DNA of 64,000 bases from Flexilinea sp. (GCA_026645735.1 JAPKMT010000009.1:2662-66661), one strand, 5' to 3'; shown: positions 14,507 through 62,408, counted from the first letter of the stretch. Translations and numbers: made by a program. The notes: a model not told the origin generated them from the letters alone.

Positions 14507-14629
14507 CAGTAATTTAAAATTCGGAAAGGCTTTTATAAAAAGAGGGAAAGTTTGTTATGGATGTGTTTTTCCTGAGAGGTTAAAAACACATCCATAACAA
14601 ATAATCTTCTCAATTTTCGAAGGATTCGC
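14507..14629 (+). mobile_element. 123-bp MITE copy
   Basis: CAGTAATT left end, perfect 20-bp arms 14551-14570/14582-14601, flanks CTGAATAAC/CTGCATTTC match 6/9. Confidence 0.75.
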
Positions 14630-14741
14630 CTGCATTTCGAATTGCTCATTACTAACCGATATGTGGATCGCTGAAATGACGAATTTCAATAAAGTCATGA
14701 ATTCTTTAAACGACAGTAGAATGGCTACCATCAGATTTTCA

Positions 14742-14774
14742 GAAAAGGGGAGGCTGTATAGCCTCCCCTTTTTC
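14742..14774 (-). terminator. Terminator/stem-loop after solute-binding protein gene
   Basis: GAAAAGGGGAGGCT-GTAT-AGCCTCCCCTTTT hairpin. Confidence 0.8.
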
Positions 14775-14804
14775 AATCCTGATAAAGCGGAATGATCCGT
14801 TTTT

Positions 14805-16070
14805 TTATTTTACAGGTGGATACCATTTATCCAATGCGTCCTGGACATATTTGGCGGCATCAGCCGGGGTCATCGTTCCATTGATGACATTTGCAGAAGT
14901 ATTCCATAAATCGGTATCCATACCCGGTTCACCACGACCAATGATGGACGCAGAAATTCGGATGCTGGATCCGCAATCTTTTCTCCAGGAAAGGAATTCC
15001 TGAGCTACCGGATTATCTACTGAATACTCGATATTTGCCAGCGGGAAGAAACCAACCATATTGTTCGCATACAATGAGGCAAATTCAGCCGAGGCAACCC
15101 AATCCAGGAATATTCTGGCTGCCTCCGGGTATTTGGTGGCAGAATTCATGCCAATACCAATATCGGTATGGTCGCTGATAAAGCATGCATCATCTGCTTT
15201 GTCCATCGGAACCCGGAAAGCACCCATTTCGAACTCGCCGGCGATCAGCGGTTCAAAAACTGAAATTTCCCAGGAACCAGTGGGATAGATTGCAGCCTGA
15301 CCCATGGTAAATAACTGCTGTGCGTCTGAATACTGAACAGCCTGATAACCATCGGGCAGATATGGAGCCCATTTGGCCAGTTCTTCAAAGGTCTTAACAA
15401 AAGGTTCATCTATGAATTTCGCAGTTCCATTGATGATGCCGAGACGGCCTTCTTCACCTTTATAGTTCTGGACACCGATGTTATACCAGCCCATCGTTGC
15501 TGCTTCCCATAAATCATGTGTTCCCATGGCCAGCGGAATGTATTCACCATCCGCTTTGATGGCATCTAATAATGCGAAGAACTCATCCTTGGTTACCGGG
15601 ACTTTCCAGCCCTTTTCCTCAAAAGCGGTCTTGTTATACATAAAACCATGAATCACGGAAGCCATCGGGACACAATAAGTTGTGGTTCCATCATCCGTAG
15701 TCCAGGCAACTTTCGCTGAATCACCGAAGGATGCCATTCCAGGCAGATCATTCAACGGTGCAAGAAAACCTTTTTCAAATAAAGCCAGAGAGGGATCGAA
15801 TGGACGGCAGGTAATGATGTCGCCCGCTGTACCACCTTCCAGTTTTGTGTTCAATTGGCCGTTATAATCTTCCTGTTTGGTCGGCTGGAAGATCACTTCA
15901 ATTTCGGGATGAACTGCTTTAAATGCAGGTAAAATTTTCTCATTCCAAATCGTGATATCATCCTGACGCCAGCTTTCAATAATCAGTTTTGCACCCGCTT
16001 CCTGAGCAGCAACAGGGACAACCAGAAGCATCAGCATAACCAATGCGACAAAAATAAAAAACTTCTTCAT
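14805..16070 (-). CDS. Sugar ABC transporter solute-binding protein
   Basis: Signal peptide, family-1 SBP features (GQAAIYPTGSWEI), upstream of two permeases. Confidence 0.9.
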   Translation of the reverse strand: MKKFFIFVALVMLMLLVVPVAAQEAGAKLIIESWRQDDITIWNEKILPAFKAVHPEIEVIFQPTKQEDYNGQLNTKLEGGTAGDIITCRPFDPSLALFEKGFLAPLNDLPGMASFGDSAKVAWTTDDGTTTYCVPMASVIHGFMYNKTAFEEKGWKVPVTKDEFFALLDAIKADGEYIPLAMGTHDLWEAATMGWYNIGVQNYKGEEGRLGIINGTAKFIDEPFVKTFEELAKWAPYLPDGYQAVQYSDAQQLFTMGQAAIYPTGSWEISVFEPLIAGEFEMGAFRVPMDKADDACFISDHTDIGIGMNSATKYPEAARIFLDWVASAEFASLYANNMVGFFPLANIEYSVDNPVAQEFLSWRKDCGSSIRISASIIGRGEPGMDTDLWNTSANVINGTMTPADAAKYVQDALDKWYPPVK

Positions 16071-16360
16071 TTTATCTCCTAAATTGTTTCCACAATGATT
16101 AGTACCCCGATAAAACGGGTTTTTTAAGAAAGACTATTTTAATTCTAATCCGCAAAACCAATAGAGAGAAATAAAATCAATCACGAATTCGATTATGACA
16201 AAAGTCATATCTGCTATGAATTATTTTAAATTTTGTAAGATGATTCAATTCAATTGGTAAGTATAAGAAATTCATTATTAAGAAAAAAGACATTTTTCCA
16301 GTAATTTTCCTGTAAGGGGTTTTCCTGGTTTGTTTGTACCCTGCTTTTCCCAAAATTTGT

Positions 16361-16397
16361 AAAAAAAAAGAGGCGGATAAGGATTCCGCCCCTGTTT
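16361..16397 (-). terminator. Intrinsic terminator after pfkA
   Basis: GGGGCGGAAT...ATCCGCCTC followed by T-run on - strand. Confidence 0.75.
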
Positions 16398-17392
16398 TAT
16401 CGAGAAAGGATATTTGAAATCTTTAAGTATTCTTCAGGGAATCCGCGATGTTTTCCCACCAATTCCGGGATTGGAAGCGGCACAATATCCCGACCTTGCA
16501 GCGCTGTCATCACATTAATTTTTCCGGACGTCAAAAATTCAATTGCTTTAAAACCCATCCGTGATGCAATTAACCGATCAAAAGCGGTGGGTGTTCCTCC
16601 TCGTTGAATATAACTTAAATTCGTTCCACGTGCTTTAAACCCTAAATCCATGGCGTCCAATTGTACAGTCAGTTCATCCATTGGGATTGGGAATCCTTCG
16701 GCTACAACAATAATACAATGCCGTCTGCCGCGTTTATAAGAATTGGCAATCGTCTGTGCAATTTCCTCCACAGTGATGTCCGGGTTTTCTGGAATCAATG
16801 CCATTTCAGCCCCTGAAATCAGAGCCGATTCAACAGCCAGAAATCCGCTCTCTCTCCCCATGGTCTGGACCAGAAATGCACGGCTGTGTGATGCTGCCGT
16901 ATCCCTGATTTTATCAATCGCTTCCATGATGGTGTTCAATGCGGTATCCACTCCGATACATGTATCGGTTCCATAAACATCATTATCGATTGTCCCTGGA
17001 ATCCCAACAACTGGGAAACCTTGCGTTGCGATCGATTGAGCTCCTGCCATCGTACCATCTCCGCCAATCACAATCAGGCCATCAATCCCCTCGTGATATA
17101 GTTGACGGACTGCCTCTCGCTGCCCATGCGGTGTTGTCATCTCTGCACAGCGGGCAGTACGTAAAAAAGTTCCCCCGCGGCTGAGAATATTGCTGACATC
17201 CCGTCTTCCTAATGGTACAATATCGCCGTTAATCAATCCCTGATATCCATCCTGGATACCATACATTTTTAGTCCGGCAACAATCCCTGCCCGTACAACA
17301 GCACGAACACCGGCATTCATTCCTGGTGCATCACCACCGGATGTCAATACCGCGACTGATCGAATAGGCGTATCCAGTTGTACAGATTCCAT
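16397..17392 (-). CDS. pfkA: ATP-dependent 6-phosphofructokinase
   Basis: TSGGDAPGMN, GGDGT, PGTIDND (Gly at the positions typical of ATP-type), MGR, QRGG. Confidence 0.95.
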   Translation of the reverse strand: MESVQLDTPIRSVAVLTSGGDAPGMNAGVRAVVRAGIVAGLKMYGIQDGYQGLINGDIVPLGRRDVSNILSRGGTFLRTARCAEMTTPHGQREAVRQLYHEGIDGLIVIGGDGTMAGAQSIATQGFPVVGIPGTIDNDVYGTDTCIGVDTALNTIMEAIDKIRDTAASHSRAFLVQTMGRESGFLAVESALISGAEMALIPENPDITVEEIAQTIANSYKRGRRHCIIVVAEGFPIPMDELTVQLDAMDLGFKARGTNLSYIQRGGTPTAFDRLIASRMGFKAIEFLTSGKINVMTALQGRDIVPLPIPELVGKHRGFPEEYLKISNILSR

Positions 17393-17461
17393 AGCTCATT
17401 CCCTTTCATTACCGCAACCCAAAAGAATCGACAAATTATTAAATTATATTCAATTTTATAT

Positions 17462-17582
17462 CAGTATTTCGAAATTATGGGAGTTTTTTTGCAGGACTTT
17501 TTTGTTTGCACAAAACAAAAAATTGAAGATTTGCAATTTTCCTCGATTATCTTGATAGTTCAGCGCAAATTTCAAATTGCAG
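17462..17582 (-). mobile_element. Decayed MITE copy
   Basis: CAGTATTTCGAAAT left end, AAATTTCAAATTGCAG right end, residual T-rich/A-rich hairpin; no TSD match. Confidence 0.55.
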
Positions 17583-17623
17583 CAAGGCGAAACGAGGCTG
17601 CAGGATTGATCACATTTCCGAGC

Positions 17624-21706: not shown

Positions 21707-21782
21707 CAGCGATTCCTACAAAAATTGGATTCAATTTTCGTTATCGGATGTGTAATTTCTTTCATCTGCTGTTCGAAATATG
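21707..21782. repeat. 76-bp dispersed repeat, copy 2
   Basis: 70/76 identical to 1311-1386. Confidence 0.9.
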
Positions 21783-21895
21783 AAAAGGATGTCATCATCT
21801 CATATATCTTTGAATTATGACATTTGAAAGAATTTTTCTATGACTTTTATTTATTTACAAGTTGATGAAAATCATTTACACTAAAAAAAGGACAA

Positions 21896-24158: not shown

Positions 24159-24253
24159 CCTATATTCATTCAGTAATTTGAGATATGGGAAGAAATGTTT
24201 TTCAGAATGTGATAGTTGCACAAAGGTAGCAACCGCATTGCAATCACTTTTCT

Positions 24254-24376
24254 CTTTTTATTCGCAAAACTGTTTCTATTTCGAATAAAGAAAGAAAATC
24301 TGTTGTTCTTATGGTTTTGCGCGAAGCGCAAAACCATAAGAACAACAATGAATTCTTTTCATACTTCGAATTACTG
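24254..24376 (+). mobile_element. 123-bp MITE copy (left end decayed)
   Basis: Perfect 22-bp arms 24301-24322/24326-24347 with GAA loop; right end CATACTTCGAATTACTG; TSD not recognisable. Confidence 0.8.
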
Positions 24377-26938: not shown

Positions 26939-27061
26939 CAGCAATTCGATATGTCGAGCAGATTATTTGTTGTTGTGCTGTTTATACACAAAATGTGAAA
27001 CGGCACAACAACTTTTTTTTCTCGATTGATTTGAAAAACTGGTCTGAATTTCTGATTTGCG
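26939..27061 (-). mobile_element. 123-bp MITE copy with decayed hairpin
   Basis: CAGCAATTCGAT left end; flanks CAGGAGACA/CAGGAGGTA match 7/9. Confidence 0.75.
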
Positions 27062-29333: not shown

Positions 29334-29387
29334 CAACAATTCGAAATAGAAATCAACCAATAATCATCTTCATATTTCGAATTACTG
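29334..29387. mobile_element. Internally deleted MITE derivative (54 bp)
   Basis: CAACAATTCGAAAT ... CATATTTCGAATTACTG; no TSD match. Confidence 0.55.
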
Positions 29388-36833: not shown

Positions 36834-36955
36834 CAGCAATTGGAAAATGCGAAAAAGTATATGTTGTTGTGTTGTTTTTGCGCGTAGCGCAAAAACAACA
36901 CAACAACAAGTTTTCTCGATCGATTCGAAAGGTTGGTTCATATTTCGAATTACTG
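36834..36955 (-). mobile_element. 122-bp MITE copy
   Basis: Perfect 22-bp arms with GTA loop; TSD GCGAAATAT/GTGAAATAT (8/9). Confidence 0.9.
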
Positions 36956-40581: not shown

Positions 40582-40635
40582 CAGCGGTTTTTCGAACCAA
40601 GATAGAAATAGTTCTCCTCATATTTCGAATCGCTG
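40582..40635. mobile_element. Internally deleted MITE derivative (54 bp)
   Basis: Right end CATATTTCGAATCGCTG, weak left end CAGCGG..TTCGAA; no TSD. Confidence 0.45.
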
Positions 40636-40785: not shown

Positions 40786-40855
40786 CAGCAATTCGAAATA
40801 TGAGAAGGTTTTCCTCTTTCTTTATTTGAAGATTAATCTCAATTTCAAATTACTG
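40786..40855. mobile_element. Internally deleted MITE derivative (70 bp)
   Basis: CAGCAATTCGAAATATG ... AATTTCAAATTACTG; flanks share ATCAG (5/9). Confidence 0.65.
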
Positions 40856-42002: not shown

Positions 42003-45000
42003 TCAATGTTTTTTCAATCCCGCTTTGACGGTTTGCTGATCAAACTGGTCTTCCACGCCATCCCAGTCTGCGGGAATGCTGCCGGCGAGCAGGGACACTG
42101 CCAGCGTTTCCGTCTGGATGTATTCCGCATTGTCTTGGATCGCTTCCGCCAGCAGCGGACTCGCTTCATAGACAACGGCGATGCGATCGGAAATTTCCAG
42201 TCCGGCCGTCTTGCGCAAATCCTGAATACGGCGTACAAATTCGCGTGCCAGTCCTTCCTTGATTAACTCCGGTGTCAGTGTCGTTTCCAGCGCAGCGATG
42301 CTGGATCCGCTGGTTGCCACCACAAAACCGGCATGCGCATTGGCGCGAACTTCCACCTCTTCCGGAAGAATTTCATAACTTTCACCATCCATTGTTACGG
42401 TTACGGATTTTCCTTCCAATAACGCTTTACCGGCTTCCATCGGCTCTAACGATAAGATCGCTTTTCGCAGTGCCGGGAATAATTTGCCGTATTTCTGACC
42501 AAGTTGTTTCGGCTGCGGATTGAGAGTGAAGTCCATTGCTTCGGATGCTGCATCCAGCGGTCGTACTTTTTTGACATTCAGCTCTTCTTCCAATATGTCG
42601 GCATACTTCGCGATAATCGGCCGGTCTTCCGCCAGACCGACAGAAAACGCACATTCCGCCAATGGCTGGCGAACTTTCAAGTTTTCTTTGTTGCGTGCGG
42701 CATGACCCAGGGACGCCAGATCAACGACCAGATTCATCTCATGATTCAGTTGTTCATCAATCAGCGATTCATCAAAGACCGGCCAGTCCGCTATATGCAC
42801 CGATTCCACAGCATTTGGATCGATGGAACAGACCAGGTTTTGGTATAGCGCATCTGCCAGGAAAGGCATGGCCGGAGCAATCAGTTTTGCCACAGTCACC
42901 AGCGCGGTATACAGAACCTGATAGGCTGCATTTTTATCGCCATCGCCTTCGCTCTTCCAGAAACGCCTGCGGGAACGGCGCAAATACCAGTTCGACAACT
43001 GATCCACAAATGCCTGAATCGGACGGGTTGCGGCATTGACGTCGTATTCCTCATACGCTTTGGTGATGTTTCTGACCAGTGCATTCAATGCGGATAAAAG
43101 CCAGCGGTCCAGATCACTGTACTCGACCTTCTGCTCTTTATTGGGAGTCCAACCGTCCAGATTGGCATACATCACAAAAAATGAATAGGTGTTCCAGAGC
43201 TGCAGCGTAAAACTGCGCAGTACTTCATTGACCAGGTTGGATGAGAATCGGCGTTCCTGACCGGCCGGGCTGGAAGTAAACAGATACCAGCGCATCGCAT
43301 CGGCGCCATTGTCCTTGATCACATCCCAGGGCGAAACCACATTGCCGATGTGTTTGGACATCTTGTGCCCTTTTTCATCCAGAACCAATCCAAGACAAAT
43401 CACGTTTTTAAAACATTCCTGATTCATCAGAAGCGTACTGACCGCGTGCAGTGAATAAAACCAGCCGCGCGTCTGGTCAATCGCTTCACAGATATAATCC
43501 GCAGGATATTGTTCTTTAAATTCTTTTTCGTTCTTGATCGGGTATCCCCATTGGGCGTAGGGCATGGCTCCCGAATCAAACCAGACGTCAATCAATTCCG
43601 GCACACGATGCATCGTTCCGCCGCATTGTTCACAGCGCCAGGTAACTTCGTCCACATAAGGCCGATGCAATTCCAGATCGGAATAATCTTTTCCGGTTTT
43701 TTGTGACAGCGCTTCCCGGCTGCCGATACATTCCTGATGACCGCAGTCATCACAAATCCAGACCGGCAGCGGTGTTCCCCAATAACGGTTACGGCCTAAT
43801 GCCCAGTCGATATTATTCTCCAGCCAATTTCCAAAGCGGCCGTGTTTAATATGACCGGGATACCAGTTGATACGTTCATTCAGTTCCACCAACCTGTCCT
43901 TAAACTGACTGGTACGGATATACCAGGTGGGACGTGCCACATACAGCAGCGGCGTGCTGCAGCGCCAGCAGAAAGGATAGGTATGTTTGATTTTGCCATG
44001 TTTCAACATGCGGTCGCGGGAAACCAGTTCTTTGATGATCAGCGGATCCGCATCCTTGACAAAAAGTCCAGCCCATGGCGTGACTTCTGGTATAAATTTG
44101 CCTGCGCCGTCCACTGTCATCAGCAGCGGGAAATCTTCCCGTTTTCCAACTTCATTGTCTTCTGCACCGAACGATGGAGCAATATGGACCAGACCGGTTC
44201 CGTCTTCAGTCGTCACATAATCCGCCAGGACAATGCGATGTGCCGGTTTTTCAAGCGGCAGAAAACGATACAACGGTTCGTAACGCCATCCCTTCAACGC
44301 GCTGCCTTGATAAGACTCAAGAATTTTTACATCCTCGCCTGGCAGAACAACCGGAACCAGTGTCTCCGCCATGATCAATTTTTCAGAGGAACCATCTTCT
44401 TTGGTTCGTTCAATTTTTACATAGGTGACATCCGGATGCGCAGCGACACCGACATTAGCCGGAAGTGTCCACGGCGTCGTCGTCCATACCAGAAGGTTCG
44501 TATCCGGTTGATCGATCAACTGTAATCTGAAATAAATCGATGGATCCTCAGCTTCCTGATACCCCTGAGCAACTTCATGATCGGCAAGTGGTGTCCCGCA
44601 GCGCGGGCAATAAGGCACCACTTTAAATCCCTGGTATAACAAATTGCGGTCAAAAAAGTTTTTGAGGATACTCCACTCCGATTCAATATACTCATCCTTA
44701 TAGGTCACATAAGCCGTACTCAGGTCCACCCAATAGGCAACCCGTTCCGTCATTCTTTCCCATTCCTGGATATTTGTAAAAGCGGATTCTTTGCAGAGTT
44801 TGTTAAATTTATCAATCCCATAATCTTCAATTTGCTGTTTGTTGGTAAAACCCAGTTTCTTTTCGACTTCAATTTCCACCGGAAGACCATGTGTGTCCCA
44901 CCCGCCGCGCCGGCTGATATGACAGCCTTGCATGGTGCGATAACGGAGGATCACATCCTTGAAAGAACGGGAAAGGACATGATGGACACCCGGTTTTCCG

Positions 45001-45152
45001 TTAGCAGTCGGAGGACCTTCGAAAAAGATAAATTCTTTCTTCCCCGCCCGATTGTCCGTTGATTTTTGAAAAATATCCTTCTCTTTCCAATAATTGAGGA
45101 TACCTTCTTCCATTTCATTCACATTGAGTTTTGCCGATACTGGCTTGAACAT
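42003..45152 (-). CDS. ileS: Isoleucine--tRNA ligase, type 2
   Basis: EGPPTANG.PGVHH, GWDTHGLPVE, WTTTPWTLP, RYWGTPLP, KMSKH; RBS before ATG 45152. Confidence 0.97.
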   Translation of the reverse strand: MFKPVSAKLNVNEMEEGILNYWKEKDIFQKSTDNRAGKKEFIFFEGPPTANGKPGVHHVLSRSFKDVILRYRTMQGCHISRRGGWDTHGLPVEIEVEKKLGFTNKQQIEDYGIDKFNKLCKESAFTNIQEWERMTERVAYWVDLSTAYVTYKDEYIESEWSILKNFFDRNLLYQGFKVVPYCPRCGTPLADHEVAQGYQEAEDPSIYFRLQLIDQPDTNLLVWTTTPWTLPANVGVAAHPDVTYVKIERTKEDGSSEKLIMAETLVPVVLPGEDVKILESYQGSALKGWRYEPLYRFLPLEKPAHRIVLADYVTTEDGTGLVHIAPSFGAEDNEVGKREDFPLLMTVDGAGKFIPEVTPWAGLFVKDADPLIIKELVSRDRMLKHGKIKHTYPFCWRCSTPLLYVARPTWYIRTSQFKDRLVELNERINWYPGHIKHGRFGNWLENNIDWALGRNRYWGTPLPVWICDDCGHQECIGSREALSQKTGKDYSDLELHRPYVDEVTWRCEQCGGTMHRVPELIDVWFDSGAMPYAQWGYPIKNEKEFKEQYPADYICEAIDQTRGWFYSLHAVSTLLMNQECFKNVICLGLVLDEKGHKMSKHIGNVVSPWDVIKDNGADAMRWYLFTSSPAGQERRFSSNLVNEVLRSFTLQLWNTYSFFVMYANLDGWTPNKEQKVEYSDLDRWLLSALNALVRNITKAYEEYDVNAATRPIQAFVDQLSNWYLRRSRRRFWKSEGDGDKNAAYQVLYTALVTVAKLIAPAMPFLADALYQNLVCSIDPNAVESVHIADWPVFDESLIDEQLNHEMNLVVDLASLGHAARNKENLKVRQPLAECAFSVGLAEDRPIIAKYADILEEELNVKKVRPLDAASEAMDFTLNPQPKQLGQKYGKLFPALRKAILSLEPMEAGKALLEGKSVTVTMDGESYEILPEEVEVRANAHAGFVVATSGSSIAALETTLTPELIKEGLAREFVRRIQDLRKTAGLEISDRIAVVYEASPLLAEAIQDNAEYIQTETLAVSLLAGSIPADWDGVEDQFDQQTVKAGLKKH

Positions 45153-45186
45153 GTTGTTCCTCCGAAAAAACGAATTTCGTGTACTT

Positions 45187-45437
45187 AAAATAAATAACCG
45201 TCCCCATAAGGGACGGACAGATTCCGCGGTACCACCCTTGTTTTCATCATTAAGAAAATGATGAACGCTTTCATCCTGATAACGGTGGAATTTTGCCGTC
45301 TCACTTACTTGTATGAAGTTAATCATACGTTCAGATCAAAGCTCCGAAAGGATTTTCTCTCTGCACATCTCTGCCCGGCTCTCACCATTCCGGGTTCGCT
45401 GTAGATGAAATCACAAAGATACTCGTTTTCATCAACG
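45187..45437 (-). ncRNA. T-box riboswitch (Ile specifier) upstream of ileS
   Basis: AGCGA/GGTGAGAGCC stem I boxes, ATC specifier candidate at 45336-45334, AGTA and CCGTTA boxes, AAGGGTGGTACCGCGG T-box (45239-45224), terminator CCGTCCC/GGGACGG plus T-rich tail. Confidence 0.92.
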
Positions 45438-45490
45438 CCAGATTATTGGCATATTTAACCATATTTTTAACAATTGGTCAAATCAGATAC

Positions 45491-45613
45491 AAGCGATTCT
45501 TAGTATGGAAAAAAATAATTGTTGTTGTGGTGTTTTTGTGCGAAGCGCAAAAACACCACAACAACATATTTTCTCTTGAAATTCGAAAAGCATGGCCTTA
45601 TTTCGGATTGATA
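45491..45613 (-). mobile_element. 123-bp MITE copy
   Basis: 21/22-bp arms with GAA loop; TSD ATCAGATAC/ATCAGATGC (8/9). Confidence 0.9.
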
Positions 45614-46146: not shown

Positions 46147-46275
46147 CTCAGTTTTTCTCCTAATTATGTCTGATTCGTGTTTAGAAAAATCGCGAGGACT
46201 AATTATTGTTCCATTGTTATTGAACAAATCGCAATAACAATGGAACAACCGGTTCTCTCTCTTTATTGATTAAAC

Positions 46276-54313: not shown

Positions 54314-54618
54314 TTTTTCCCTCTTTAGTATATTTGATGAATGATACGATTTATTGAAAATTCTGGAATAAATCATAGCTTTATATTTTGTATTGATATA
54401 AACTAGTATAACAAAAAGGTATTACTGTTTTTTCATTGAGTTGAATATCTATAGGAAAATGATTATAACAAATTAAAACTATTCAATTTCAGAATCTGGT
54501 ATATTTTTATTAATTTTATTGGTTTATCCATTTCGAGATAACCGAACATGGAAAAATGATAACAAAGACGAATAATACAGCTATTTTTTCTGTTTTTCCA
54601 GGATTTTTTAATAAATAA

Positions 54619-54741
54619 CAGTAATTCGAAATTTGGAAAAACCTTTTGAGAAAAAAGAGAAAATTAGTTGTTATGTTGTTTTTGCGCAGAGCGCAAAAAC
54701 AACATAACAATAAGTAATCTCTCTCATATTTCGAATTGCTG
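54619..54741 (+). mobile_element. 123-bp MITE copy (best preserved)
   Basis: TIRs CAGTAATTCGAAATTTG / CATATTTCGAATTGCTG; perfect TSD AATAAATAA; perfect 20-bp arms with AGA loop. Confidence 0.95.
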
Positions 54742-54856
54742 AATAAATAATGAATCCAGTCGAAAAATTGTTATGATCATCCTTTTTACGCTATGGATCC
54801 GGGATGATCCAGACAGGGTTCTGTATAAAAATATATTGAAGGATTATAGGTTTTAA

Positions 54857-56383
54857 ATGAAAATCAGAATCATTGCCCCGATCACTTCTTCTGTGTACGC
54901 TTCCAGCGCACTTCCCGTTCTGCAAAAGTTTGTTAATGAAAATACACAGATCAGTCTTGTCAGTTTGTCGAAGGGACCCGCTTCTCTTGAATCGATTTAT
55001 GAAGAAACGCTTGCCGCCCCTCAGGTCGTACAACGAGTGTTGGAAGCCGAACGGGATGGGATGGATGCAGTTGTCATTGATTGCATGAACGATCCGGGTT
55101 TAGAAGCAGCCAGAGAAATGACCAGAATTCCGGTAATTGGTGCAGCTCAGTCTGCGATGACACTGGCAGCAACGCTGTGTGGCAAATTTTCCATAATCGC
55201 AACCGCTAAACGAGACCGCTTCCCTTTCGAACTTCTCGTTAAACGATATGGATTGACAGAGAAATTTGCATCCATTCGATCTGTTGAGATACCTGTCCTT
55301 GATTTATATAAACTCAGCGAAAAACTGCTTTCCTCATTAATTACCGAATCCATTCATGCGATACAGGAAGATGGCGCCAGCGGAATTATTTTCGGATGTA
55401 CCAGTATGCGTGAGATGAAACAGGATTTGAAAGACGCGCTTCAACAGCACGGATTGAATCCTCTGATCATCGATCCATCGTCTGTTGCTTTAAAATGGGC
55501 TGAAATGCTGGCAGGATTAAATCGCACACACAGTCAAAAAACCTATCCGTATGGCAAAAGTTTTCTGCTTCCGGAACATAAAACCCTGAACGCAGAATTA
55601 AACCAATCCAGGAATGGCACACACCATCGTTCGGTTAAAATTTGCGTGATGGTACCCGTCGTTCAGGGATATCGGGAAGACAGGTGGCTTGAGGACACGC
55701 GAAAAGGATATGCCGCTTATGCACGTCCTTCGACGCAAATTATGGTGGAGGCAATCCAAACCGGACCAGCAACCATTGAAAATCAGTATCTAAAAGCCAT
55801 GTGCATCCCGGAATTGCTCCGAATCGCCAAAAATGCAGAGAAGAATGGCGCTGATGCACTGATTATCGACTGCATGAGTGATCCGGGTTTTGATGCAGTC
55901 CGTGAAGCAGTTACCATCCCTGTAATCGGGCAGACACACATTTGCAGCTTTCTGGCATCAGCGCTTTCACACCGCTTCAGTATTTTGGGAACCCGCAAAG
56001 ATTATGGACATAAATTTGCCAACCAGGTTGCAGAATATGGAATCAGTGCCAAACTGGCATCCGTACGAACGATTGGCTTGACCGTTGAGGAAGTGGAAAC
56101 TAATCCGGACAGGTTATTGAAAGCGCTGCTGGATGCAGGTGAACAAGCAGTTATTCAAGATGGTGCGCATTCCTTAATTCCAGGCTGCACCGGAATGATC
56201 GGTCTTGCGGATACGCTACAGGAAAGGCTTTCTGAGCGTGGAATCCATGTGCCCGTACTGGAACCGCCTGCGGTTGCTGTCAAATTTGCGGAATTATTGA
56301 CCGATTTGCATCTCTGTCACAGTAAAATTACATGGCCGCTTCCTCCTGAAAAAGAAATCAGCGGTTATCCGGAAATCTTATAA
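54857..56383 (+). CDS. Tandem two-domain Asp/Glu/hydantoin racemase family protein
   Basis: Two repeats each with IDCMxDPG and GCTxM catalytic Cys motifs. Confidence 0.9.
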   Translation: MKIRIIAPITSSVYASSALPVLQKFVNENTQISLVSLSKGPASLESIYEETLAAPQVVQRVLEAERDGMDAVVIDCMNDPGLEAAREMTRIPVIGAAQSAMTLAATLCGKFSIIATAKRDRFPFELLVKRYGLTEKFASIRSVEIPVLDLYKLSEKLLSSLITESIHAIQEDGASGIIFGCTSMREMKQDLKDALQQHGLNPLIIDPSSVALKWAEMLAGLNRTHSQKTYPYGKSFLLPEHKTLNAELNQSRNGTHHRSVKICVMVPVVQGYREDRWLEDTRKGYAAYARPSTQIMVEAIQTGPATIENQYLKAMCIPELLRIAKNAEKNGADALIIDCMSDPGFDAVREAVTIPVIGQTHICSFLASALSHRFSILGTRKDYGHKFANQVAEYGISAKLASVRTIGLTVEEVETNPDRLLKALLDAGEQAVIQDGAHSLIPGCTGMIGLADTLQERLSERGIHVPVLEPPAVAVKFAELLTDLHLCHSKITWPLPPEKEISGYPEIL

Positions 56384-56914: not shown

Positions 56915-56915
56915 A

Positions 56916-57203: not shown

Positions 57204-57286
57204 TGGATCAAATCGAAGGGAAAATGAATCAGGGTCCTTCGATCACCATCCAAAAATAAATTGGATGATAAAAAAATGGAGAAGAT

Positions 57287-58429
57287 ATGTCAAAAACAAT
57301 ACTGAAAACAAAGCAAGATTGTGTCGATTTTCTTACTGGATTAAAACTGCTCGGAACAGGAGGAGGCGGTTCGATAACGACTGGAATGGAATTGCTCACA
57401 AAAGCACTTGATGAAGGATTGACGCTTTCATGGATCGATGCCGCAGAATTACCAGAAGACACGTTCACTTGTACTGCGTTCAGCTCCGGATCAATCTCTG
57501 CCGGTCGTCCGGAAAGTGAATCGGATATTACTGAATTAGGGAAAAAATTGGGAATCGAGAATAAATTTGGTTTGCGGGCGGCTGAAATGGCGGTGAAGGA
57601 GTTGGAGAAGTACTCCGGTGTCAAAGTAGGTGCTTTGGTTCCTGTAGAGTTAGGTGCTGCCAATGCACCAGCTCCAATGGTAATTGCAGCCCGTCTGGGA
57701 ATGAGTCTGATCGACGGTGATTACAGCGGGAGAGCAGTTCCACAGGAAATGCAGACGACCTATTTTCTGAAAGATTACAGCATTACGCCGGCAGTAGTGA
57801 CAGACTGGTGGGGGGATATCGTTGTCATCAAAGAAGGCTCGGCGGCCATGGTTGAAAGGTTAGGAAAAATGATGGCCATCGCCAGCTATGGCGCTGTATA
57901 TTTTGCATCGGTCCTCTTATCGGCCAAAGATACAAGAGAAACAATTGTTCCCGGCACTTTATCATTGAGCTATGAACTCGGAAAAGCCGTCCACAAAGCG
58001 GTTAAGTCCGCACAGAACCCTGTAACAAAAATTGTTGAACAACTGAATGGATGGAAATTATTCTCAGGAGTTGTTACTGGCAAAGAATGGGAGGATAAAG
58101 AGGGTGCCATGGCGGGAACAACCCACATCCGGGGAACAGGTGTTGATGAAGGTCACACGATGGATATCTGGTTCCTCAACGAAAACCACGTGGCATGGCT
58201 GGACGGGAAACCCTATGTTTTCAGCCCGGATATTATCATAAACGTCAATCCGAATACTGGTGAAGGATATTCCAATACGGAACTGAAAGAGGGTGATCCG
58301 GTCGCAGTCGTTGGCTGCAAAATCAATCCGGTTTTCCGTTCTGAAAAAGCAATTTCTTACTTTGGACCGCGATTTTGGGGCTTTGATTTTGACTACAAGC
58401 CGATAGAAGAAATGATGGCTAGGCGTTAA
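57287..58429 (+). CDS. DUF917 family protein (copy 2)
   Basis: LGTGGGGS, ELGAAN, DGDYSGRAVP, WFLNENH, PDII. Confidence 0.88.
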   Translation: MSKTILKTKQDCVDFLTGLKLLGTGGGGSITTGMELLTKALDEGLTLSWIDAAELPEDTFTCTAFSSGSISAGRPESESDITELGKKLGIENKFGLRAAEMAVKELEKYSGVKVGALVPVELGAANAPAPMVIAARLGMSLIDGDYSGRAVPQEMQTTYFLKDYSITPAVVTDWWGDIVVIKEGSAAMVERLGKMMAIASYGAVYFASVLLSAKDTRETIVPGTLSLSYELGKAVHKAVKSAQNPVTKIVEQLNGWKLFSGVVTGKEWEDKEGAMAGTTHIRGTGVDEGHTMDIWFLNENHVAWLDGKPYVFSPDIIINVNPNTGEGYSNTELKEGDPVAVVGCKINPVFRSEKAISYFGPRFWGFDFDYKPIEEMMARR

Positions 58430-58467
58430 ATAACACTGAATCAAGCACGATCAACGATACTTAAAAC

Positions 58468-58515
58468 AGAGAATTGGTTTTTTGGGAAATATTCCAACGG
58501 CCAATTCTCTTTTTT
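58468..58515 (+). terminator. Terminator after DUF917 copy 2
   Basis: AGAGAATTGG...CCAATTCTCT-TTTTT. Confidence 0.7.
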
Positions 58516-58570
58516 ATATCCAGTTTCAAGCATTTAGATGCATATCGGGACACGCACGAACATTTGCTGC

Positions 58571-58610
58571 TTGACAACGCAATGAAACTATTATACTATA
58601 TATAATAGTA
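58571..58610 (+). promoter_or_regulatory. Sigma70 promoter with overlapping PadR-type palindrome
   Basis: TTGACA-17 bp-TACTAT; TACTAT-ATATA-ATAGTA inverted repeat covers the -10 box. Confidence 0.75.
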
Positions 58611-58716
58611 TTTTACGATTAGTACTGAACTAACTTTTCTTACTCCCGATCAACAATAAAATCGAAAATACTCGAATGAAAACAAGAAAATATCGATTAG
58701 GAAAGGAGGTTGATTC

Positions 58717-59043
58717 ATGAATATTCAATACAAAAAAGGGGTTCTGGAACTTTGCGTTTTAGCCATTTTATATCGCCATGACTGTTATGGATATGACATA
58801 TCAGAATTTATTTCAAAACGGATCGATATCTCAGATGGAACGGTCTATCCCATTTTGCGAAAATTGAAGAGTGATGGAATGGTAACAACTTATTTATCGG
58901 AAGACAGCGGTGGTCCACCCAGAAAATATTACACGCTTACAGATCTCGGGGAAAAAGAATTTTTACAGTCAAAGGAAGAATGGAGCTCTTTTATCAGAGT
59001 CGTCGAAGAAATACTTACGGAGGGTTCGCATGAAAAAAATTGA
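58717..59043 (+). CDS. PadR family transcriptional regulator
   Basis: KKGVLELCVL, YGYDI, GTVYPILRKL, PPRKYY. Confidence 0.95.
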   Translation: MNIQYKKGVLELCVLAILYRHDCYGYDISEFISKRIDISDGTVYPILRKLKSDGMVTTYLSEDSGGPPRKYYTLTDLGEKEFLQSKEEWSSFIRVVEEILTEGSHEKN

Positions 59044-59737
59044 TTATTTGAAAACACTGCAAAAAGAACTGAACAATAATCATGTTGCAGGAATTGATGA
59101 AATTTTGGTGGAATATGACGAGCATTTTAACTACAAAATTGCTGATGGTTACAGCGAAGAAGAAATCGCAGCGAAATTAGGAAAACCGGAACAGATTGCT
59201 GCACAATTTGCTGCTATGGATACGCCCAGTTCATACCGCAGGGGAAATAAGATTCTGGCAGCGCTTGGATTCGGATTTCTGGATCTATTCATCGGCATTT
59301 TTTTTATTCTCGCATATGTCTGGGTTATTGGTATGGGCGTTTTTTCAATAACAGCGATTCTAACAGGATTCAGTTTGGGATTAAATTTCAACCCAGGCCA
59401 TCTCGTCCCCTTTATGCCGTGGCAGAGTGCAGTCTTATTTGGAATATCGATTTTATTTTTGGGTTTTTTAGCAGCGCTTGGAACTATTTATCTATACTTC
59501 TACATCCGACAGCTGGGAAAGGCCTTTGTGCAGTGGCAGAAAAACACTTTCTCGGGAAATATGTATCCACCACTTTCAACAAATCCGCTCTTCAGCTCCA
59601 AAGCCAGACGATTTCTGAGAAGTGCAGCCCAGATTTCGCTCCTGGTTTTTGGAATAGCTTTAATTGCAGCCTATATTTTTTCAGCGATTCATGCGGGGAA
59701 TCTCGAATTCTGGCATGTATGGCACTGGTTTGTTTAG
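59030..59737 (+). CDS. DUF1700 membrane protein
   Basis: YL..L...L, EYDEHF, SEEEIAAKLGKPEQIA N-terminal motif plus TM helices; PadR-coupled. Confidence 0.85.
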   Translation: MKKIDYLKTLQKELNNNHVAGIDEILVEYDEHFNYKIADGYSEEEIAAKLGKPEQIAAQFAAMDTPSSYRRGNKILAALGFGFLDLFIGIFFILAYVWVIGMGVFSITAILTGFSLGLNFNPGHLVPFMPWQSAVLFGISILFLGFLAALGTIYLYFYIRQLGKAFVQWQKNTFSGNMYPPLSTNPLFSSKARRFLRSAAQISLLVFGIALIAAYIFSAIHAGNLEFWHVWHWFV

Positions 59738-59752
59738 AAAGGATATGATTCC

Positions 59753-60601
59753 ATGAAGACAATCATCGTAACGGGTGCGACTTCAGGTATCGGATTTGCC
59801 GTCTGCAAATCCCTCCTTCAGGCGCAATATCGTGTCATCGGAATTGGCCATACATTCGATCATTGTGAAAAAGCAAAAACTTTACTGAGAACTGAAATAC
59901 CCGATCAGGAAGTTGAATTCTTTTACGGAGATTTAATGCAGCAGCGTGAAGTTCATCGAATTGCAGATCAGTTGTCAGAACACATCGAAAAGACCTCGGA
60001 TTCCTGCCTTTTTGGCCTGATTCATAACGTTGGCTGTGTTCGCAGCTGGTACAGCACTACGGAAGACGGGTATGAGCAACAGTTTGCATTAAATCACCTG
60101 GCAGGATTTTTATTAACCCATCGATTGCTAAAGTACCTGAAAAACGAATCCGGCAGAATCCTTTTAACCAGCAGTCAATCGCACCAGTGGATGAAAATCC
60201 ATTGGAGTGACATCATGTTTCAAAAAGGATATCATCCGCTGCTGGCATACAAACAATCAAAACTATGCAATCTGCTTTTCGCTTATGCGTTGAATACGCG
60301 GTATCCCTCGAGAGAAATCCAGGCATTTTGTATCGATCCTGGACTCTTTCGAACGGATATCGGCAATAAGAAGACAGGGAAACTGGTCAGTTTTGTGTGG
60401 AATCTGAGAAAAGCCGGTGGCGTTCTTCCCGAAATTCCTGCTGAAACGTATCGATTTTTGTGCGATCAGAAAAAAAATCCGGATGGATTGTATTACAAAA
60501 ATTGCCGAAAAATGCCTTTCAGCAGGCAAGTTAATCGACAAAATGCGGAGCAGCTCTTTGCCTTAAGTGAACAATTCTGCAATATTCAATTTGGAGTCTG
60601 A
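59753..60601 (+). CDS. SDR family oxidoreductase
   Basis: TGATSGIG, YKQSK catalytic YxxxK, DPG. Confidence 0.9.
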   Translation: MKTIIVTGATSGIGFAVCKSLLQAQYRVIGIGHTFDHCEKAKTLLRTEIPDQEVEFFYGDLMQQREVHRIADQLSEHIEKTSDSCLFGLIHNVGCVRSWYSTTEDGYEQQFALNHLAGFLLTHRLLKYLKNESGRILLTSSQSHQWMKIHWSDIMFQKGYHPLLAYKQSKLCNLLFAYALNTRYPSREIQAFCIDPGLFRTDIGNKKTGKLVSFVWNLRKAGGVLPEIPAETYRFLCDQKKNPDGLYYKNCRKMPFSRQVNRQNAEQLFALSEQFCNIQFGV

Positions 60602-60603
60602 AG

Positions 60604-61413
60604 ATGAAAGTATTCATTACCGGCGCAACCGGCGGGCTGGGACGCGCATTTTCCATCGAGTGTGCGAAACGCGGATTTGATCTGTTTCTGACGGATTTGA
60701 ATCAATACAAGCTGAACACACTCAAAAAAGGCCTACAGTCACAGTTCCCGCTAGTTGAAATAGAGGTCTGTGCAAGTGATCTGACCAATGAAGAAGATGT
60801 GAAAAGGTTACTGAAATTTGCAGACACGAAACAAATGAAGTTTGACATGCTGCTGAATGTAGCCGGTGTAGATTTCGAAGGCGCATTTCTGGACTGGGAT
60901 TCTTCTCACATCTTGAAAATCGTTCAATTGAACATTGAGGCGACACTGCGAATAACGCACGAAATTCTGAATCGAAGGAAGGATCAAGAAAAATTCTACC
61001 TGGTGTTCGTGGCAAGTTTGGCTTCGCTGTATCCGATGCCGCTGAAAGCCACTTATGCGGCATCAAAACGATTTTTGTATGATTTTTCAATTGCTCTGGG
61101 AGAAGAGCTGAAAACAAAGCAAGTCTCTGTTCTTTCTCTTTGTCCCGGAGGATTGCCCACCACAGAAGAAGCGATTCGCGGCATTCAGGTTCAAGGATTT
61201 TGGGGAGAAATGACAACCAACCGGCTGGAAAGTGTGGCAGCCATGACAATTTCCAAAGTCCTTCAAGGAAAGAAGATTTATATTCCGGGTGCAACTAATA
61301 AAATATTCAGTGTGTTGGGCAAATTTATTCCAAATACACTCATCGCAAAACTGCTGTATAACAGATGGAGCAGGGCACAGAGCCATTGGTTGAGCATAAA
61401 GCCGCAATTTTAA
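60604..61413 (+). CDS. SDR family oxidoreductase
   Basis: TGATGGLG, LLNVAG, YAASK; last codons lie inside a MITE. Confidence 0.9.
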   Translation: MKVFITGATGGLGRAFSIECAKRGFDLFLTDLNQYKLNTLKKGLQSQFPLVEIEVCASDLTNEEDVKRLLKFADTKQMKFDMLLNVAGVDFEGAFLDWDSSHILKIVQLNIEATLRITHEILNRRKDQEKFYLVFVASLASLYPMPLKATYAASKRFLYDFSIALGEELKTKQVSVLSLCPGGLPTTEEAIRGIQVQGFWGEMTTNRLESVAAMTISKVLQGKKIYIPGATNKIFSVLGKFIPNTLIAKLLYNRWSRAQSHWLSIKPQF

Positions 61414-61524
61414 ATATGGAAAAGAATAATTGTTATTGTGATGTAGTTGCGCGAAGCGCAACTACATCACAATAACAAAATCTCGTTTTTTTCTCAAAAG
61501 GCTATTCCAAATTTCGAATTACTG
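61402..61524 (-). mobile_element. 123-bp MITE copy inserted in SDR 3' end
   Basis: Perfect 23-bp arms with GAA loop; TSD AGCATAAAG/AGCGTAAAG (8/9). Confidence 0.92.
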
Positions 61525-61577
61525 AGCGTAAAGCCGGAGGATACCAGCGTTTATATCGTATCCCAATAAGGAATCCT

Positions 61578-61949
61578 TTACTTCGTCGGAAGAATTTCAA
61601 TCCAGTAACCATCCGGATCAACGATAAAATAGATTCCCATTTTTTCATTTTCAAAACAGACACAGCCCATTTCTTTGTGTTTTTTTAACGATTCATCAAA
61701 ATCATCAACCCGAAAAGCAAGGTGAAATTCATTATCACCCAGGTTATACTTCGGTTTACCCCAGTCACGCAACCATGTCAATTCAAGCTGCTGTTCTGTT
61801 ATTCCGTCCTCTAAAAAGCAAAGCACAAAACTCCCGTCGTCGGCTTCCTTTTTTCTGGCGACCTTCAATCCAAGTGCTTCGTTATAAAACTTCAGGGATT
61901 TTTCCAAATCAATCACATTGAAATTGTTATGCACAAACCGGTATTTCAT
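61578..61949 (-). CDS. gloA: VOC family protein / lactoylglutathione lyase-like
   Basis: HNNFNV.DLEKSL.FY, LELTW, YNLG..EFHLAF, DPDGYWIEI. Confidence 0.82.
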   Translation of the reverse strand: MKYRFVHNNFNVIDLEKSLKFYNEALGLKVARKKEADDGSFVLCFLEDGITEQQLELTWLRDWGKPKYNLGDNEFHLAFRVDDFDESLKKHKEMGCVCFENEKMGIYFIVDPDGYWIEILPTK

Positions 61950-62348
61950 TTTTCATCTCCATTTTTTTTATAGTGTCAAAATTATTCAGATGATTTCCAT
62001 CGCTTTAATAAAATTCAACTTATACAATAGAGTTATTTTAGTCCATTATAGATTAAATCGCTTTCATAGGAAGAGTAATATTCTGCCAGGTCGTCATTAA
62101 AGCTAACTTTTTATATTATGTTTATTGTAATAAATGGCAGAAACTCAATCAAAAAAAAAGAATCGATAATTGATTGACATAGTCGATATTTGTATCAATT
62201 GATGAGAACATCGATAAAATTTTGCTGATGGACTATTATTAAGATAACTGCAAATATTAGGTCAGGGAAAAAGGTTATACATTCCGGGATTTACCAATAA
62301 AGTGTTCAGTATCCCAGGGAAGATCGTATCATGCATAATAATCGCCAA

Positions 62349-62408
62349 CAGCAATTCGAAATGTGGATATGCTTTTTGAATAGAGAAAGAAGATAATTCG
62401 AAAAGCTG
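62349..62408 (+). mobile_element. Hairpin-less 60-bp MITE derivative
   Basis: CAGCAATTCGAAAT ... AATTCGAAAAGCTG with perfect TSD AATCGCCAA. Confidence 0.88.

What the first reader, a model, noticed from the sequence alone, without database searches (positions are those of the whole stretch)
14507..62408. Abundant 123-bp MITE family with ~17-bp TIRs and 9-bp target-site duplications
Full-length copies at 14507, 17462, 24254, 26939, 36834, 45491, 54619 and 61402. TIR consensus CAGYAATTCGAAATWTG. TSDs: AATAAATAA (9/9), GCGAAATAT/GTGAAATAT, ATCAGATAC/ATCAGATGC and AGCATAAAG/AGCGTAAAG (8/9), CAGGAGACA/CAGGAGGTA (7/9), CTGAATAAC/CTGCATTTC (6/9). The hairpin sits about 70 bp from one end and 52 bp from the other, and both orientations occur. 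About 13 copies or remnants in 64 kb imply many genome-wide. No transposase is in the window. I do not recognise this element.
Basis: seen in the sequence. Interest (0 to 1): 0.8.

Follow-up and report, generated by a model that had tools for sequence, protein, structure and literature searches.

The report
Abundant 123-bp MITE, parent IS found
The repeat is a real miniature transposon that fills about 2% of an uncultured Anaerolineaceae genome; it is moved by a Tn5-like insertion sequence found in a sister species, so it is a new family of a well-known kind rather than a new kind of element.

Summary
The window carries 8 full or near-full copies and at least 7 short or decayed ones. The terminal motif CAGYRATTCGAAAT occurs 23 times against 4.4 expected.

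Genome-wide (3.35 Mb MAG, Chloroflexota, near Flexilinea) there are about 327 full copies and 625 loci, 1.9% of the DNA. 125 of 218 full-size copies have flanks identical at 8 or 9 of 9 bases. Essentially all copies are intergenic.

The autonomous partner exists. It is a 1632-bp IS with the same ends and 9-bp duplications. I saw it once in a congener (G016) and as three identical copies in another assembly.

Its 446-aa transposase has a Tn5-like predicted fold. Its relatives are annotated ISNCY.

Four G000 copies sit at sites that are empty in G016, each with a single target copy.

No transposase and no identical copies are found in this genome, so the family looks dormant here.

The central 22-25-bp palindrome keeps its arms complementary: 166 compensated changes against about 1 expected. 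Its 3-nt loop occurs in both orientations. Replication template switching is the best fit.

The closest known analogue is Nezha/ISNpu3 of cyanobacteria.

This scan had already noted a similar IS in another genome (e1-756436).

The parts
54619..54741 (-). Full 123-bp MITE copy (subfamily A type) with a perfect 9-bp TSD, AATAAATAA. Both TIRs match the motif exactly.
36834..36955 (+). Full 122-bp copy (subfamily C type). TSD GCGAAATAT/GTGAAATAT, 8/9. The 20-bp-stem hairpin at 36863-36907 is flagged terminator-like on both strands.
45491..45613 (+). Full copy with decayed ends. TSD ATCAGATAC/ATCAGATGC, 8/9. It lies 47 bp upstream of the T-box leader of ileS.
61402..61524 (+). Full copy. TSD AGCATAAAG/AGCGTAAAG, 8/9. 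The stop codon of ORF 60604-61413 lies inside it. G016 has a copy at the same target with a different but self-complementary stem. A 2.9-kb G000/G016 indel ends at its left end.
26939..27061 (+). Full copy with a divergent hairpin. TSD CAGGAGACA/CAGGAGGTA, 7/9. G016 has a hairpin-deleted version of about 60 bp at the same place.
24171..24376 (-). Two abutting copies. One is a decayed copy at 24171-24262. The other is a 5'-truncated subfamily-B copy at about 24263-24376 (hairpin CTTATGG/CCATAAG; good right end CTTCGAATTACTG).
14507..14647 (-). Divergent 141-bp copy with its own 20-bp-stem hairpin. The right TIR ends at 14647. The TSD has decayed (6/9).
17462..17582 (.). Old divergent 121-bp copy. 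TIRs have 1-2 mismatches, the palindrome is short and different, and no TSD is left (1/9).
46181..46267 (+). Partial, decayed copy (model positions 7-93) with a hairpin.
62349..62408 (.). Hairpin-less 60-bp derivative with a perfect TSD, AATCGCCAA.
40786..40855 (.). Hairpin-less 70-bp derivative. The TSD has decayed (5/9).
40582..40635 (.). 54-bp derivative with a perfect right TIR.
29334..29387 (.). 54-bp hairpin-less derivative. Both TIRs are good and no TSD is left.
4979..5049 (.). 71-bp decayed derivative. TSD 6/9.
1311..1390 (+). TIR-bearing variant repeat. It starts CAGTAATTCC and runs into ...CTGCTGTTCGAAATATGG. It is 91% identical to 21707-21786.
21707..21786 (+). Second copy of the variant repeat at 1311-1390. 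G016 has a full MITE in the same spacer.

Best explanation
This is a family of non-autonomous DNA transposons (MITEs), here called by its ends CAGYRATTCGAAATWTGG.

Anatomy. Each 123-bp copy has two terminal inverted repeats of about 18-22 bp. These are the binding and cleavage sites of a transposase supplied in trans. Between them lie two short linkers and a central perfect palindrome (22-25-bp stem, 3-nt loop).

The mobiliser is a 1632-bp insertion sequence with the same ends. It encodes one 446-aa DDE transposase with a Tn5-like predicted fold. The inferred catalytic residues are D128, D216/D217 and E344.

Inferred mechanism. By analogy with Tn5/IS50, a transposase dimer synapses the two ends, excises the element, and joins it to target DNA cut with a 9-bp stagger. 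Repair of the stagger gives the 9-bp duplication.

Population history. Insertions survive almost only between genes. The family spread in the common ancestor of a few species of one Anaerolineaceae genus and went on spreading after those species split. In the window's genome it now appears dormant, with no transposase and no identical copies.

The palindrome. It is not needed for an insertion to exist, since hairpin-less forms have their own TSDs. It behaves as a self-correcting structure. A change in one arm is copied to the other arm, and the loop is flipped. The most likely cause is intramolecular template switching or hairpin repair during replication.

Shown: repeat family, TIRs, TSDs, parent IS, empty sites, transposase fold, arm co-variation, loop flip-flop.
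Inferred: cut-and-paste chemistry, dormancy, the template-switch origin of the co-variation.
For: Copy number:
- nhmmer finds 904 hits, which reduce to 523 loci, 327 of them full length.
- Merged with TIR pairs this gives 625 loci and 63.5 kb, 1.9% of the genome.
- The length peak is at 123 bp.

TSD: 125 of 218 have at least 8 of 9 identical flanks.

Parent IS:
- G016 locus L091:821-2452 is 1632 bp, with TSD GCATTCTGT 9/9.
- Three identical copies occur in ERZ21878220, with TSDs 9/9, 8/9 and 9/9, and one of them splits a LacI-family gene.
- IS and MITE ends agree at 18-20 of the first 22 nt.
- G000 C13 is the empty site of G016's IS copy.

MITE empty sites in G016 for G000 copies: C36:17620, C14:19405, C56:14349 and C44:5072. 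Four other sites are shared by both genomes. The reverse case also exists.

Transposase:
- D128, D216/D217, E344 and K352 are invariant in 21 homologues.
- PF01609 is hit in 13 of 21 and PF13808 in 9 of 21.
- The AF2 model has pLDDT 89. Its top PDB hits are Tn5 transposase, E 1e-9, TM about 0.5.
- Homologues are annotated ISNCY.
- Distant homologous ISs all start CAGCAATTC.

Location: only 1 of 327 copies lies inside an ORF of at least 150 aa.

Dormancy:
- No P0001 match in G000.
- Maximum pairwise identity is 97.6%, and the nearest-neighbour median is 87%.

Palindrome:
- Within subfamilies there are 166 compensated against 239 one-sided changes in 4884 pair-cells, with about 1 expected by chance. 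53 of the compensated types are singletons.
- The control on TIR pairs gives 26 compensated against 503 one-sided.
- Loops occur in both orientations within each subfamily, for example GGA 15 / TCC 11 and TTT 8 / AAA 6.
- G:T 52 against A:C 50 shows no strand asymmetry.
- Quasipalindrome mutations are known to arise by template switching (PMC7202029).
Against: - No transposition was observed. Everything rests on comparative sequence.
- The IS was not found in the window's own genome. That genome is a 92%-complete, 86-contig MAG in which repeats may be unassembled, so 'dormant' is not proven.
- The MITE interior has no similarity to the IS interior, so its origin is unknown.
- P0001 is below the Pfam cut-offs (19.2 against 23 bits; 20.6 against 32.3) and hits no NCBIfam model.
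- Some 'shared' G000/G016 spacers carry copies of different subfamily or orientation. These may be independent hits or conversions rather than orthologues.
- The lower stem divergence (0.062 against 0.106-0.121) is partly confounded, because the stems helped define the subfamilies.
Confidence: 0.9

Rival explanations
1. The palindrome is a selected, functional module of the transposon. It could act as a cruciform hinge or a protein-binding structure that lets a 123-bp element, shorter than the persistence length of DNA, synapse its ends. On this reading only hairpin-bearing masters amplify.
For: - All six major subfamilies have different stem sequences, yet each stem is perfectly complementary.
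- Hairpin-less forms have heterogeneous junctions and form no large uniform subfamily.
- The hairpin never occurs without the MITE: 1 of 196 partial loci.
- The whole element folds far better than shuffles, z -9.8 to -14.
Against: - Hairpin-less copies of 38-117 bp carry their own good TSDs. They may, however, be post-insertion deletions.
- Compensated changes also occur as singletons in single dead copies. Selection on masters cannot explain that.
- The parent IS has no such palindrome.
Confidence: 0.2
2. The copies are kept by the host as transcription terminators or other RNA-level regulatory hairpins. On this reading pairing is maintained by selection on RNA structure.
For: - The hairpin followed by GTTTTCTCTTTTTTCTC is flagged terminator-like.
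- The copies are intergenic.
- Stem divergence is lower than linker divergence.
Against: - There is no orientation bias relative to flanking genes in tandem spacers, 83 against 67.
- Copies are enriched in divergent spacers, not convergent ones: 62 against 39, where the genome has 349 against 376.
- G:T and A:C mismatches are equally frequent, 52 against 50, whereas an RNA helix would tolerate only G:U.
- Loop orientation is free.
Confidence: 0.1
3. It is a REP/BIME-like palindromic repeat spread by a Y1 (RAYT) transposase or by recombination, not by a DDE transposase.
For: It is a short, intergenic, palindrome-containing repeat present in hundreds of copies.
Against: - It has 18-22-bp terminal inverted repeats and fixed 9-bp target duplications. 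REPs lack both.
- A DDE IS with identical ends exists.
- Hairpin-only units are absent.
Confidence: 0.02
4. The family is still active in this organism. On this reading the IS is present but was lost from the MAG during assembly or binning.
For: - The assembly is 92% complete in 86 contigs with no contig under about 6 kb.
- IS copies typically assemble as separate contigs of 1.5-2 kb.
- The close relative G016 keeps one intact copy.
Against: - No two MITE copies are more than 97.6% identical.
- No IS end was seen at any TIR pair 300-6000 bp apart with a TSD.
Confidence: 0.25

Closest known systems
Nezha MITE and its presumed partner ISNpu3 (Anabaena, Nostoc; Zhou et al. 2008, as summarised in PMC3184786)
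   Same: - It is a small (130-170 bp), non-coding, highly structured MITE whose TIRs and DR match an IS found only in a related species.
- Empty and filled orthologous sites were shown for it.
- A Nostoc punctiforme IS annotated ISNCY encodes a transposase 40.5% identical to the one found here. Its ends are CAGCAATTCTCAT... and its flanks look like a 9-bp duplication.
   Different: - It is in a different phylum (Cyanobacteriota against Chloroflexota).
- Only the first 9 nt of the ends are shared.
- The interior here is a discrete central palindrome with flip-flop loops.
- I could not obtain the Nezha sequence, and I did not verify that the N. punctiforme copy is ISNpu3 itself.
Tn5 / IS50 transposase (IS4 family; PDB 1MUH, 4DM0)
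   Same: - It is the best structural match to the predicted transposase over about 430 columns (E 1e-9, TM about 0.5).
- It has a DDE triad with an R...E...K signature.
- It makes a 9-bp target duplication (established for IS50 and IS10).
   Different: - Sequence identity is only 13-14%, and there is no sequence-level PDB hit.
- The ends are different.
- The N-terminal domain resembles PF13808 (ISAs1-type) instead.
ISAs1 family / ISNCY groups with CAG... termini
   Same: - The domain pair PF13808 + PF01609 is shared.
- From my own memory of the ISfinder tables, not tested here, ISAs1 and several ISNCY groups have ends starting CAG and 8-10-bp DRs.
   Different: - No NCBIfam IS model matches.
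- Pfam scores are below the cut-offs for P0001.
Chunjie (Geobacter uraniireducens), Correia, RUP and ERIC: classical bacterial MITEs
   Same: - They are intergenic, high-copy, TIR-bounded and structured.
- Chunjie has 21-bp TIRs and 9-bp DRs (PMC3184786).
   Different: - There is no sequence relation to any of them.
- Correia uses a TA target.
- The density here, about 1 locus per 5.4 kb, is at the high end.

Membership tests
Bacterial MITE (non-autonomous derivative of a DDE insertion sequence) | Small (under about 300 bp) and non-coding | tested here: met
   The modal length is 123 bp. ORFs that overlap copies are short, or are artefacts of start over-extension.
Bacterial MITE (non-autonomous derivative of a DDE insertion sequence) | Terminal inverted repeats | tested here: met
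   Both ends have the consensus CAGCAATTCGAAATATGG. There are 1501 motif hits in the genome.
Bacterial MITE (non-autonomous derivative of a DDE insertion sequence) | Target-site duplication of fixed length | tested here: met
   The TSD is 9 bp. 125 of 218 copies have at least 8 of 9 identical flanks.
Bacterial MITE (non-autonomous derivative of a DDE insertion sequence) | Ends shared with an autonomous IS that makes the same TSD | tested here: met
   The 1632-bp IS shares 18-20 of the first 22 end positions and has 9-bp TSDs.
Bacterial MITE (non-autonomous derivative of a DDE insertion sequence) | Presence/absence at orthologous sites, with a single target copy in the empty site | tested here: met
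   Four G000 copies are empty in G016, and four are shared.
Bacterial MITE (non-autonomous derivative of a DDE insertion sequence) | Mobilisation by the transposase shown experimentally | not testable with these tools
   This needs a transposition assay.
Parent IS: IS4-superfamily / ISNCY (Tn5-like DDE transposase) | DDE catalytic triad conserved | tested here: met
   D128, D216/D217 and E344 are invariant in 21 sequences.
Parent IS: IS4-superfamily / ISNCY (Tn5-like DDE transposase) | Tn5-like fold including the beta insertion domain | tested here: met
   Foldseek gives Tn5 chains at E 1e-9 and probability 1.0. Strands 264-321 are inserted in the RNase H fold.
Parent IS: IS4-superfamily / ISNCY (Tn5-like DDE transposase) | Passes curated family models (Pfam PF01609 gathering score; NCBIfam IS models) | tested here: not met
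   P0001 scores 19.2 bits against a cut-off of 23. No NCBIfam model hits it. 13 of 21 homologues hit PF01609 at E below 0.01.
Parent IS: IS4-superfamily / ISNCY (Tn5-like DDE transposase) | Homologues named ISNCY by NCBI | tested here: met
   RPH62221.1 and the N. punctiforme, Gloeothece and Acaryochloris plasmid genes are so named.
Nezha MITE family | Sequence similarity to Nezha copies | not testable with these tools
A search of plasmids with the N. punctiforme IS end gave no small elements.
REP/BIME | Bare 20-40-bp palindromes without TIRs or TSDs | tested here: not met
   TIRs and TSDs are present. Only 1 hairpin-only locus was found.
Intrinsic terminator module selected by the host | Orientation matched to the upstream gene | tested here: not met
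   83 opposite against 67 same in tandem spacers.

The most novel reading that the evidence does not exclude
The central palindrome is not a passive passenger. It is a structure the element needs in order to amplify, for example an extruded cruciform that hinges a sub-persistence-length element so that the Tn5-like transposase can pair its ends. Its sequence-free, structure-conserved evolution across subfamilies would then reflect selection on transposition competence, acting on top of replication template switching.
Probability: 0.2. Interest if true: 0.6.

Novelty: new member of a known kind. Interest (0 to 1): 0.4.

Why it matters
- It gives what appears to be the first MITE-plus-parent-IS pair described in Anaerolineae/Chloroflexota that I could find. 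The phylum is common in digesters and guts and is known mostly from MAGs.
- At about 1 locus per 5.4 kb, the repeat will fragment short-read assemblies of this clade, and it marks a sub-lineage of the genus.
- It attaches ends (CAGCAATTC...), a 9-bp duplication and a Tn5-like fold to a large, mostly unannotated transposase family. That family has more than 3700 relatives, often labelled 'hypothetical' or ISNCY.
- The roughly 330 copies of one palindrome form a natural replicate experiment on arm-to-arm correction and loop inversion in bacterial DNA.

Tried and rejected
No read-level test of insertion polymorphism, loop heteroplasmy or transcription was therefore possible.
- An exact-protein look-up of a window gene, meant to find strain-level relatives, found nothing.
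- In-silico excision to find nested insertions restored a host MITE in only 3 cases.
- Empty-site constructs from G016 searched against G000 gave only one spanning hit. The reverse search worked.
- The target-site logo shows only a weak A/T preference and no consensus.
- There is no orientation bias relative to genes.
- NCBIfam gave no hit, and the PDB sequence profile gave no hit.
- Rfam found only a T-box leader and nothing for the repeat.
- The literature searches found no description of this element.
- The search for Nezha-like small elements with the N. punctiforme IS end was uninformative.
- One search used a mis-indexed stem and should be ignored. One search replaces it.
- The PF01609 hit on G000 contig C83 is a different, truncated IS1634/IS4-like transposase without these ends.
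- The comparison of loop orientation between 'orthologous' G000 and G016 copies was inconclusive. Many shared spacers hold different subfamilies.
Full report
**1. The observation**

The eight stated copies are present. A profile built from six window copies finds 904 nhmmer hits in the window's genome. These reduce to 523 non-overlapping loci, 327 of them full length and in both orientations (171 + / 156 -).

The genome is G000: 3.35 Mb, 86 contigs, 41.4% GC.

The terminal motif CAGYRATTCGAAAT, with up to 2 mismatches, occurs 23 times in the window. Shuffles give 4.35 +/- 2.1, and 0 of 100 reach 23. It occurs 1501 times in the genome.

Adjacent +/- motif pairs peak sharply at 123 bp: 127 pairs are exactly 123 bp and 192 are 122-124 bp. 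There are minor classes at 38, 58-63 and 70-80 bp.

Merging the profile loci with the motif pairs gives 625 loci and 63.5 kb, 1.9% of the genome.

The 9-bp duplication is real. 125 of 218 full-size pairs have at least 8 of 9 identical flanks.

**2. The organism and the spread of the element**

The ileS gene of the window is 73-76% identical, at protein level, to those of Flexilinea sp. and of Anaerolineaceae MAGs from digesters and goat abomasum. The host is therefore an uncultured Anaerolineaceae bacterium (Chloroflexota).

Of the 25 species genomes in its genus, the element is found in G000, G016 and G005. By first-look candidates these hold 543, 595 and 188. It is marginally present in G013. 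It is not found in the other 21 genus members, nor in 12 other families of the order that were searched.

**3. The parent IS**

A Pfam PF01609 scan of the four MITE-bearing genomes led to G016:C1. There, a 1632-bp element (L091:821-2452) has these features:
- ends CAGCAATTCGAAATATG... and ...CATTTTTCGAATTACTG;
- a perfect 9-bp duplication, GCATTCTGT;
- one 446-aa ORF (P0001).

The same IS at 85% DNA identity occurs as three identical copies in one ENA assembly. Their duplications are GACAAGCCC (9/9), CTTTTTTAG/TTTTTTTAG (8/9) and AGAATTAAC (9/9). One of these copies splits a LacI-family regulator gene.

The first 22 nt of the MITE ends match the IS ends at 18-20 positions.

G000 contig C13 holds the empty site of G016's IS copy, with one copy of the target (GCTTTCTGT).

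G000, G005 and G013 have no match to the transposase, and G016 has one.

**4. The transposase**

P0001 has more than 3700 relatives. Most are unnamed and sit on contigs of 1.5-2 kb. One NCBI member, and several cyanobacterial plasmid genes at 36-40% identity, are annotated 'ISNCY family transposase'.

Pfam gives weak PF13808 (N-terminal) and PF01609 hits for P0001. Among 21 homologues, 13 hit PF01609 and 9 hit PF13808. NCBIfam and the PDB sequences give nothing.

D128, D216/D217, E344, R338/R340 and K352 are invariant in the 21 homologues.

An AlphaFold2 model (pLDDT 89, pTM 0.89) matches Tn5 transposase chains best: E about 1e-9, probability 1.0, TM about 0.5 over about 430 columns.

Distant members of the family (39-46% identity) sit in ISs of 1.44-1.64 kb that all begin CAGCAATTC.

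Tn5/IS50 and IS10 make 9-bp duplications by cut-and-paste. That is the mechanism I infer here.

**5. Mobility of the MITE**

Contig C86 (80 kb) is collinear with G016:C3 at 83-90% identity.

I joined the flanks of 36 G000 copies with one target copy each and searched G016 with the result. Eight sites were informative.
- Four are empty in G016, each with a single copy of the target: G000 C36:17620-17743, C14:19405-19526, C56:14349-14471 and C44:5072-5195. The last of these is an insertion into the end of another MITE that is intact in G016.
- Four are filled in both genomes, with about 125 bp between the two flanks.

The reverse case, filled in G016 and empty in G000, also occurs.

The family was therefore active both before and after these species diverged.

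**6. State in G000**

At least six subfamilies exist, with 93, 46, 30, 14, 14 and 10 copies. No two copies exceed 97.6% identity, and the median nearest-neighbour identity is 87%.

With no transposase found, the family looks dormant here. The caveat is that the MAG is 92% complete.

**7. Location**

Only 1 of 327 full copies lies inside an ORF of at least 150 aa, and that one is near the ORF's 5' end. This is against a crude coding fraction of 87%.

Among intergenic copies, divergent spacers are over-represented:

| Spacer type | MITE copies | Spacers in genome |
|---|---|---|
| Tandem | 150 | 1912 |
| Divergent | 62 | 349 |
| Convergent | 39 | 376 |

There is no orientation bias relative to genes (83:67). 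The target shows only a weak A/T preference.

**8. The palindrome**

Stems are mostly 20-25 bp with 3-nt loops. As single-stranded DNA, the subfamily consensus sequences fold at -38 to -43 kcal/mol, z -9.8 to -14. A simple scan flags the hairpins as terminator-like.

Each subfamily has its own stem sequence, and each is fully complementary.

Within subfamilies, 4884 pair-cells divide as follows:
- 4476 unchanged;
- 239 changed on one side;
- 166 changed on both sides and still complementary, where about 1 is expected if changes were independent.

The 166 comprise 87 distinct types, 53 of them seen in a single copy.

The same count on the two TIRs, which are inverted repeats about 100 bp apart, gives 503 one-sided and 26 compensated. 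The effect is therefore specific to the tight palindrome.

G:T and A:C mismatches are equally common (52 against 50). This argues against an RNA-strand-specific constraint.

Loops occur in both orientations within every subfamily: for example GGA 15 / TCC 11, TTT 8 / AAA 6 and TTC 9 / GAA 6. Loop divergence from the subfamily consensus is 0.47. For comparison it is 0.11 in the TIRs, 0.12 in the linkers and 0.06 in the stems.

One process explains both features: intramolecular template switching, or repair within an extruded hairpin. Such a process copies one arm onto the other and can invert the loop. It is the established origin of quasipalindrome mutations (PMC7202029).

Hairpin-only loci are virtually absent (1 of 196 partial hits), so the palindrome is part of the element and not a free REP.

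Short forms (38-117 bp) have many different junctions, often retaining one arm, and they carry their own TSDs. Most therefore look like post-insertion deletions of the palindrome. The recurrent class of 38-40 bp, some members of which are perfect palindromes, could itself be mobile.

**9. Comparison with what is known**

This is a classical bacterial MITE. The closest described analogue is Nezha of Anabaena and Nostoc. Its ends and DR match ISNpu3 of Nostoc punctiforme, and its mobility was likewise shown through empty and filled sites (PMC3184786).

A N. punctiforme IS annotated ISNCY encodes the closest named relative of P0001 (40.5% identity). Its ends are CAGCAATTCTCAT....

I found no paper on MITEs in Anaerolineae or Chloroflexota.

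**Verdict**

It is a new family of a known kind. Interest is moderate. It rests on:
- the element's abundance;
- the link to a large unannotated Tn5-like IS family;
- the self-correcting, flip-flopping palindrome.

Noticed in passing
window 45206-45444 (-): A T-box leader (Rfam RF00230, 112 bits) lies upstream of the 1107-aa ileS gene (42003-45326). The MITE copy at 45491-45613 sits only 47 bp upstream of the leader, in the likely promoter region.
   Followed up: partly
window 58533-61464 (G000 C86:61194-64125) vs G016:C3: G000 has 2.9 kb of genes that G016 lacks. The indel boundary coincides with the left end of the MITE at 61402. G016 keeps that MITE's right TSD but not its left one. This looks like a deletion adjacent to the element in G016.
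   Followed up: partly
window 1311-1390 and 21707-21786: An 80-bp repeat (91% identical copies) starts with the MITE end CAGTAATTCC and runs into a second TIR-like ...CTGCTGTTCGAAATATGG. It may be a variant with about 57 bp inserted within a TIR.
   Followed up: partly
G000, e.g. C45:7539-7578, C85:65519-65558, C9:18239-18278: Elements of 38-40 bp consist of two abutting TIRs and have 9-bp TSDs. In some, both arms carry the same non-consensus bases, so they are perfect palindromes. This suggests arm-to-arm copying here too, or a minimal mobile unit.
   Followed up: partly
L097:2873-4504 (ENA ERZ21878220 contig_93): An IS copy splits a LacI-family regulator into a Peripla_BP part (258 aa) and a LacI HTH part (96 aa). 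Three identical IS copies occur in this assembly, but no 123-bp MITE was found in the 22 kb around them.
   Followed up: partly
L089 = G000:C83:1-1057: A 5'-truncated transposase ORF of 351 aa lies at a contig end. It has an RRWEIEECF...K motif (IS1634/IS4-like) and a weak PF01609 hit. It is unrelated to the MITE's parent IS.
   Followed up: partly
L091:1-700 (G016:C1) and G000 C13:9217-9673, 12131-12254: Another repeat family, with units of about 60-200 bp that are partly tandem, flanks the IS insertion site. It recurs on several G000 contigs (C2, C21, C22).
   Followed up: no
G016:C3 segment, g16seg 54579-55325 and 91458-95392: G016 carries extra blocks of 0.75 kb and 3.9 kb, relative to G000 C86, at otherwise collinear positions. 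Their content was not examined.
   Followed up: no
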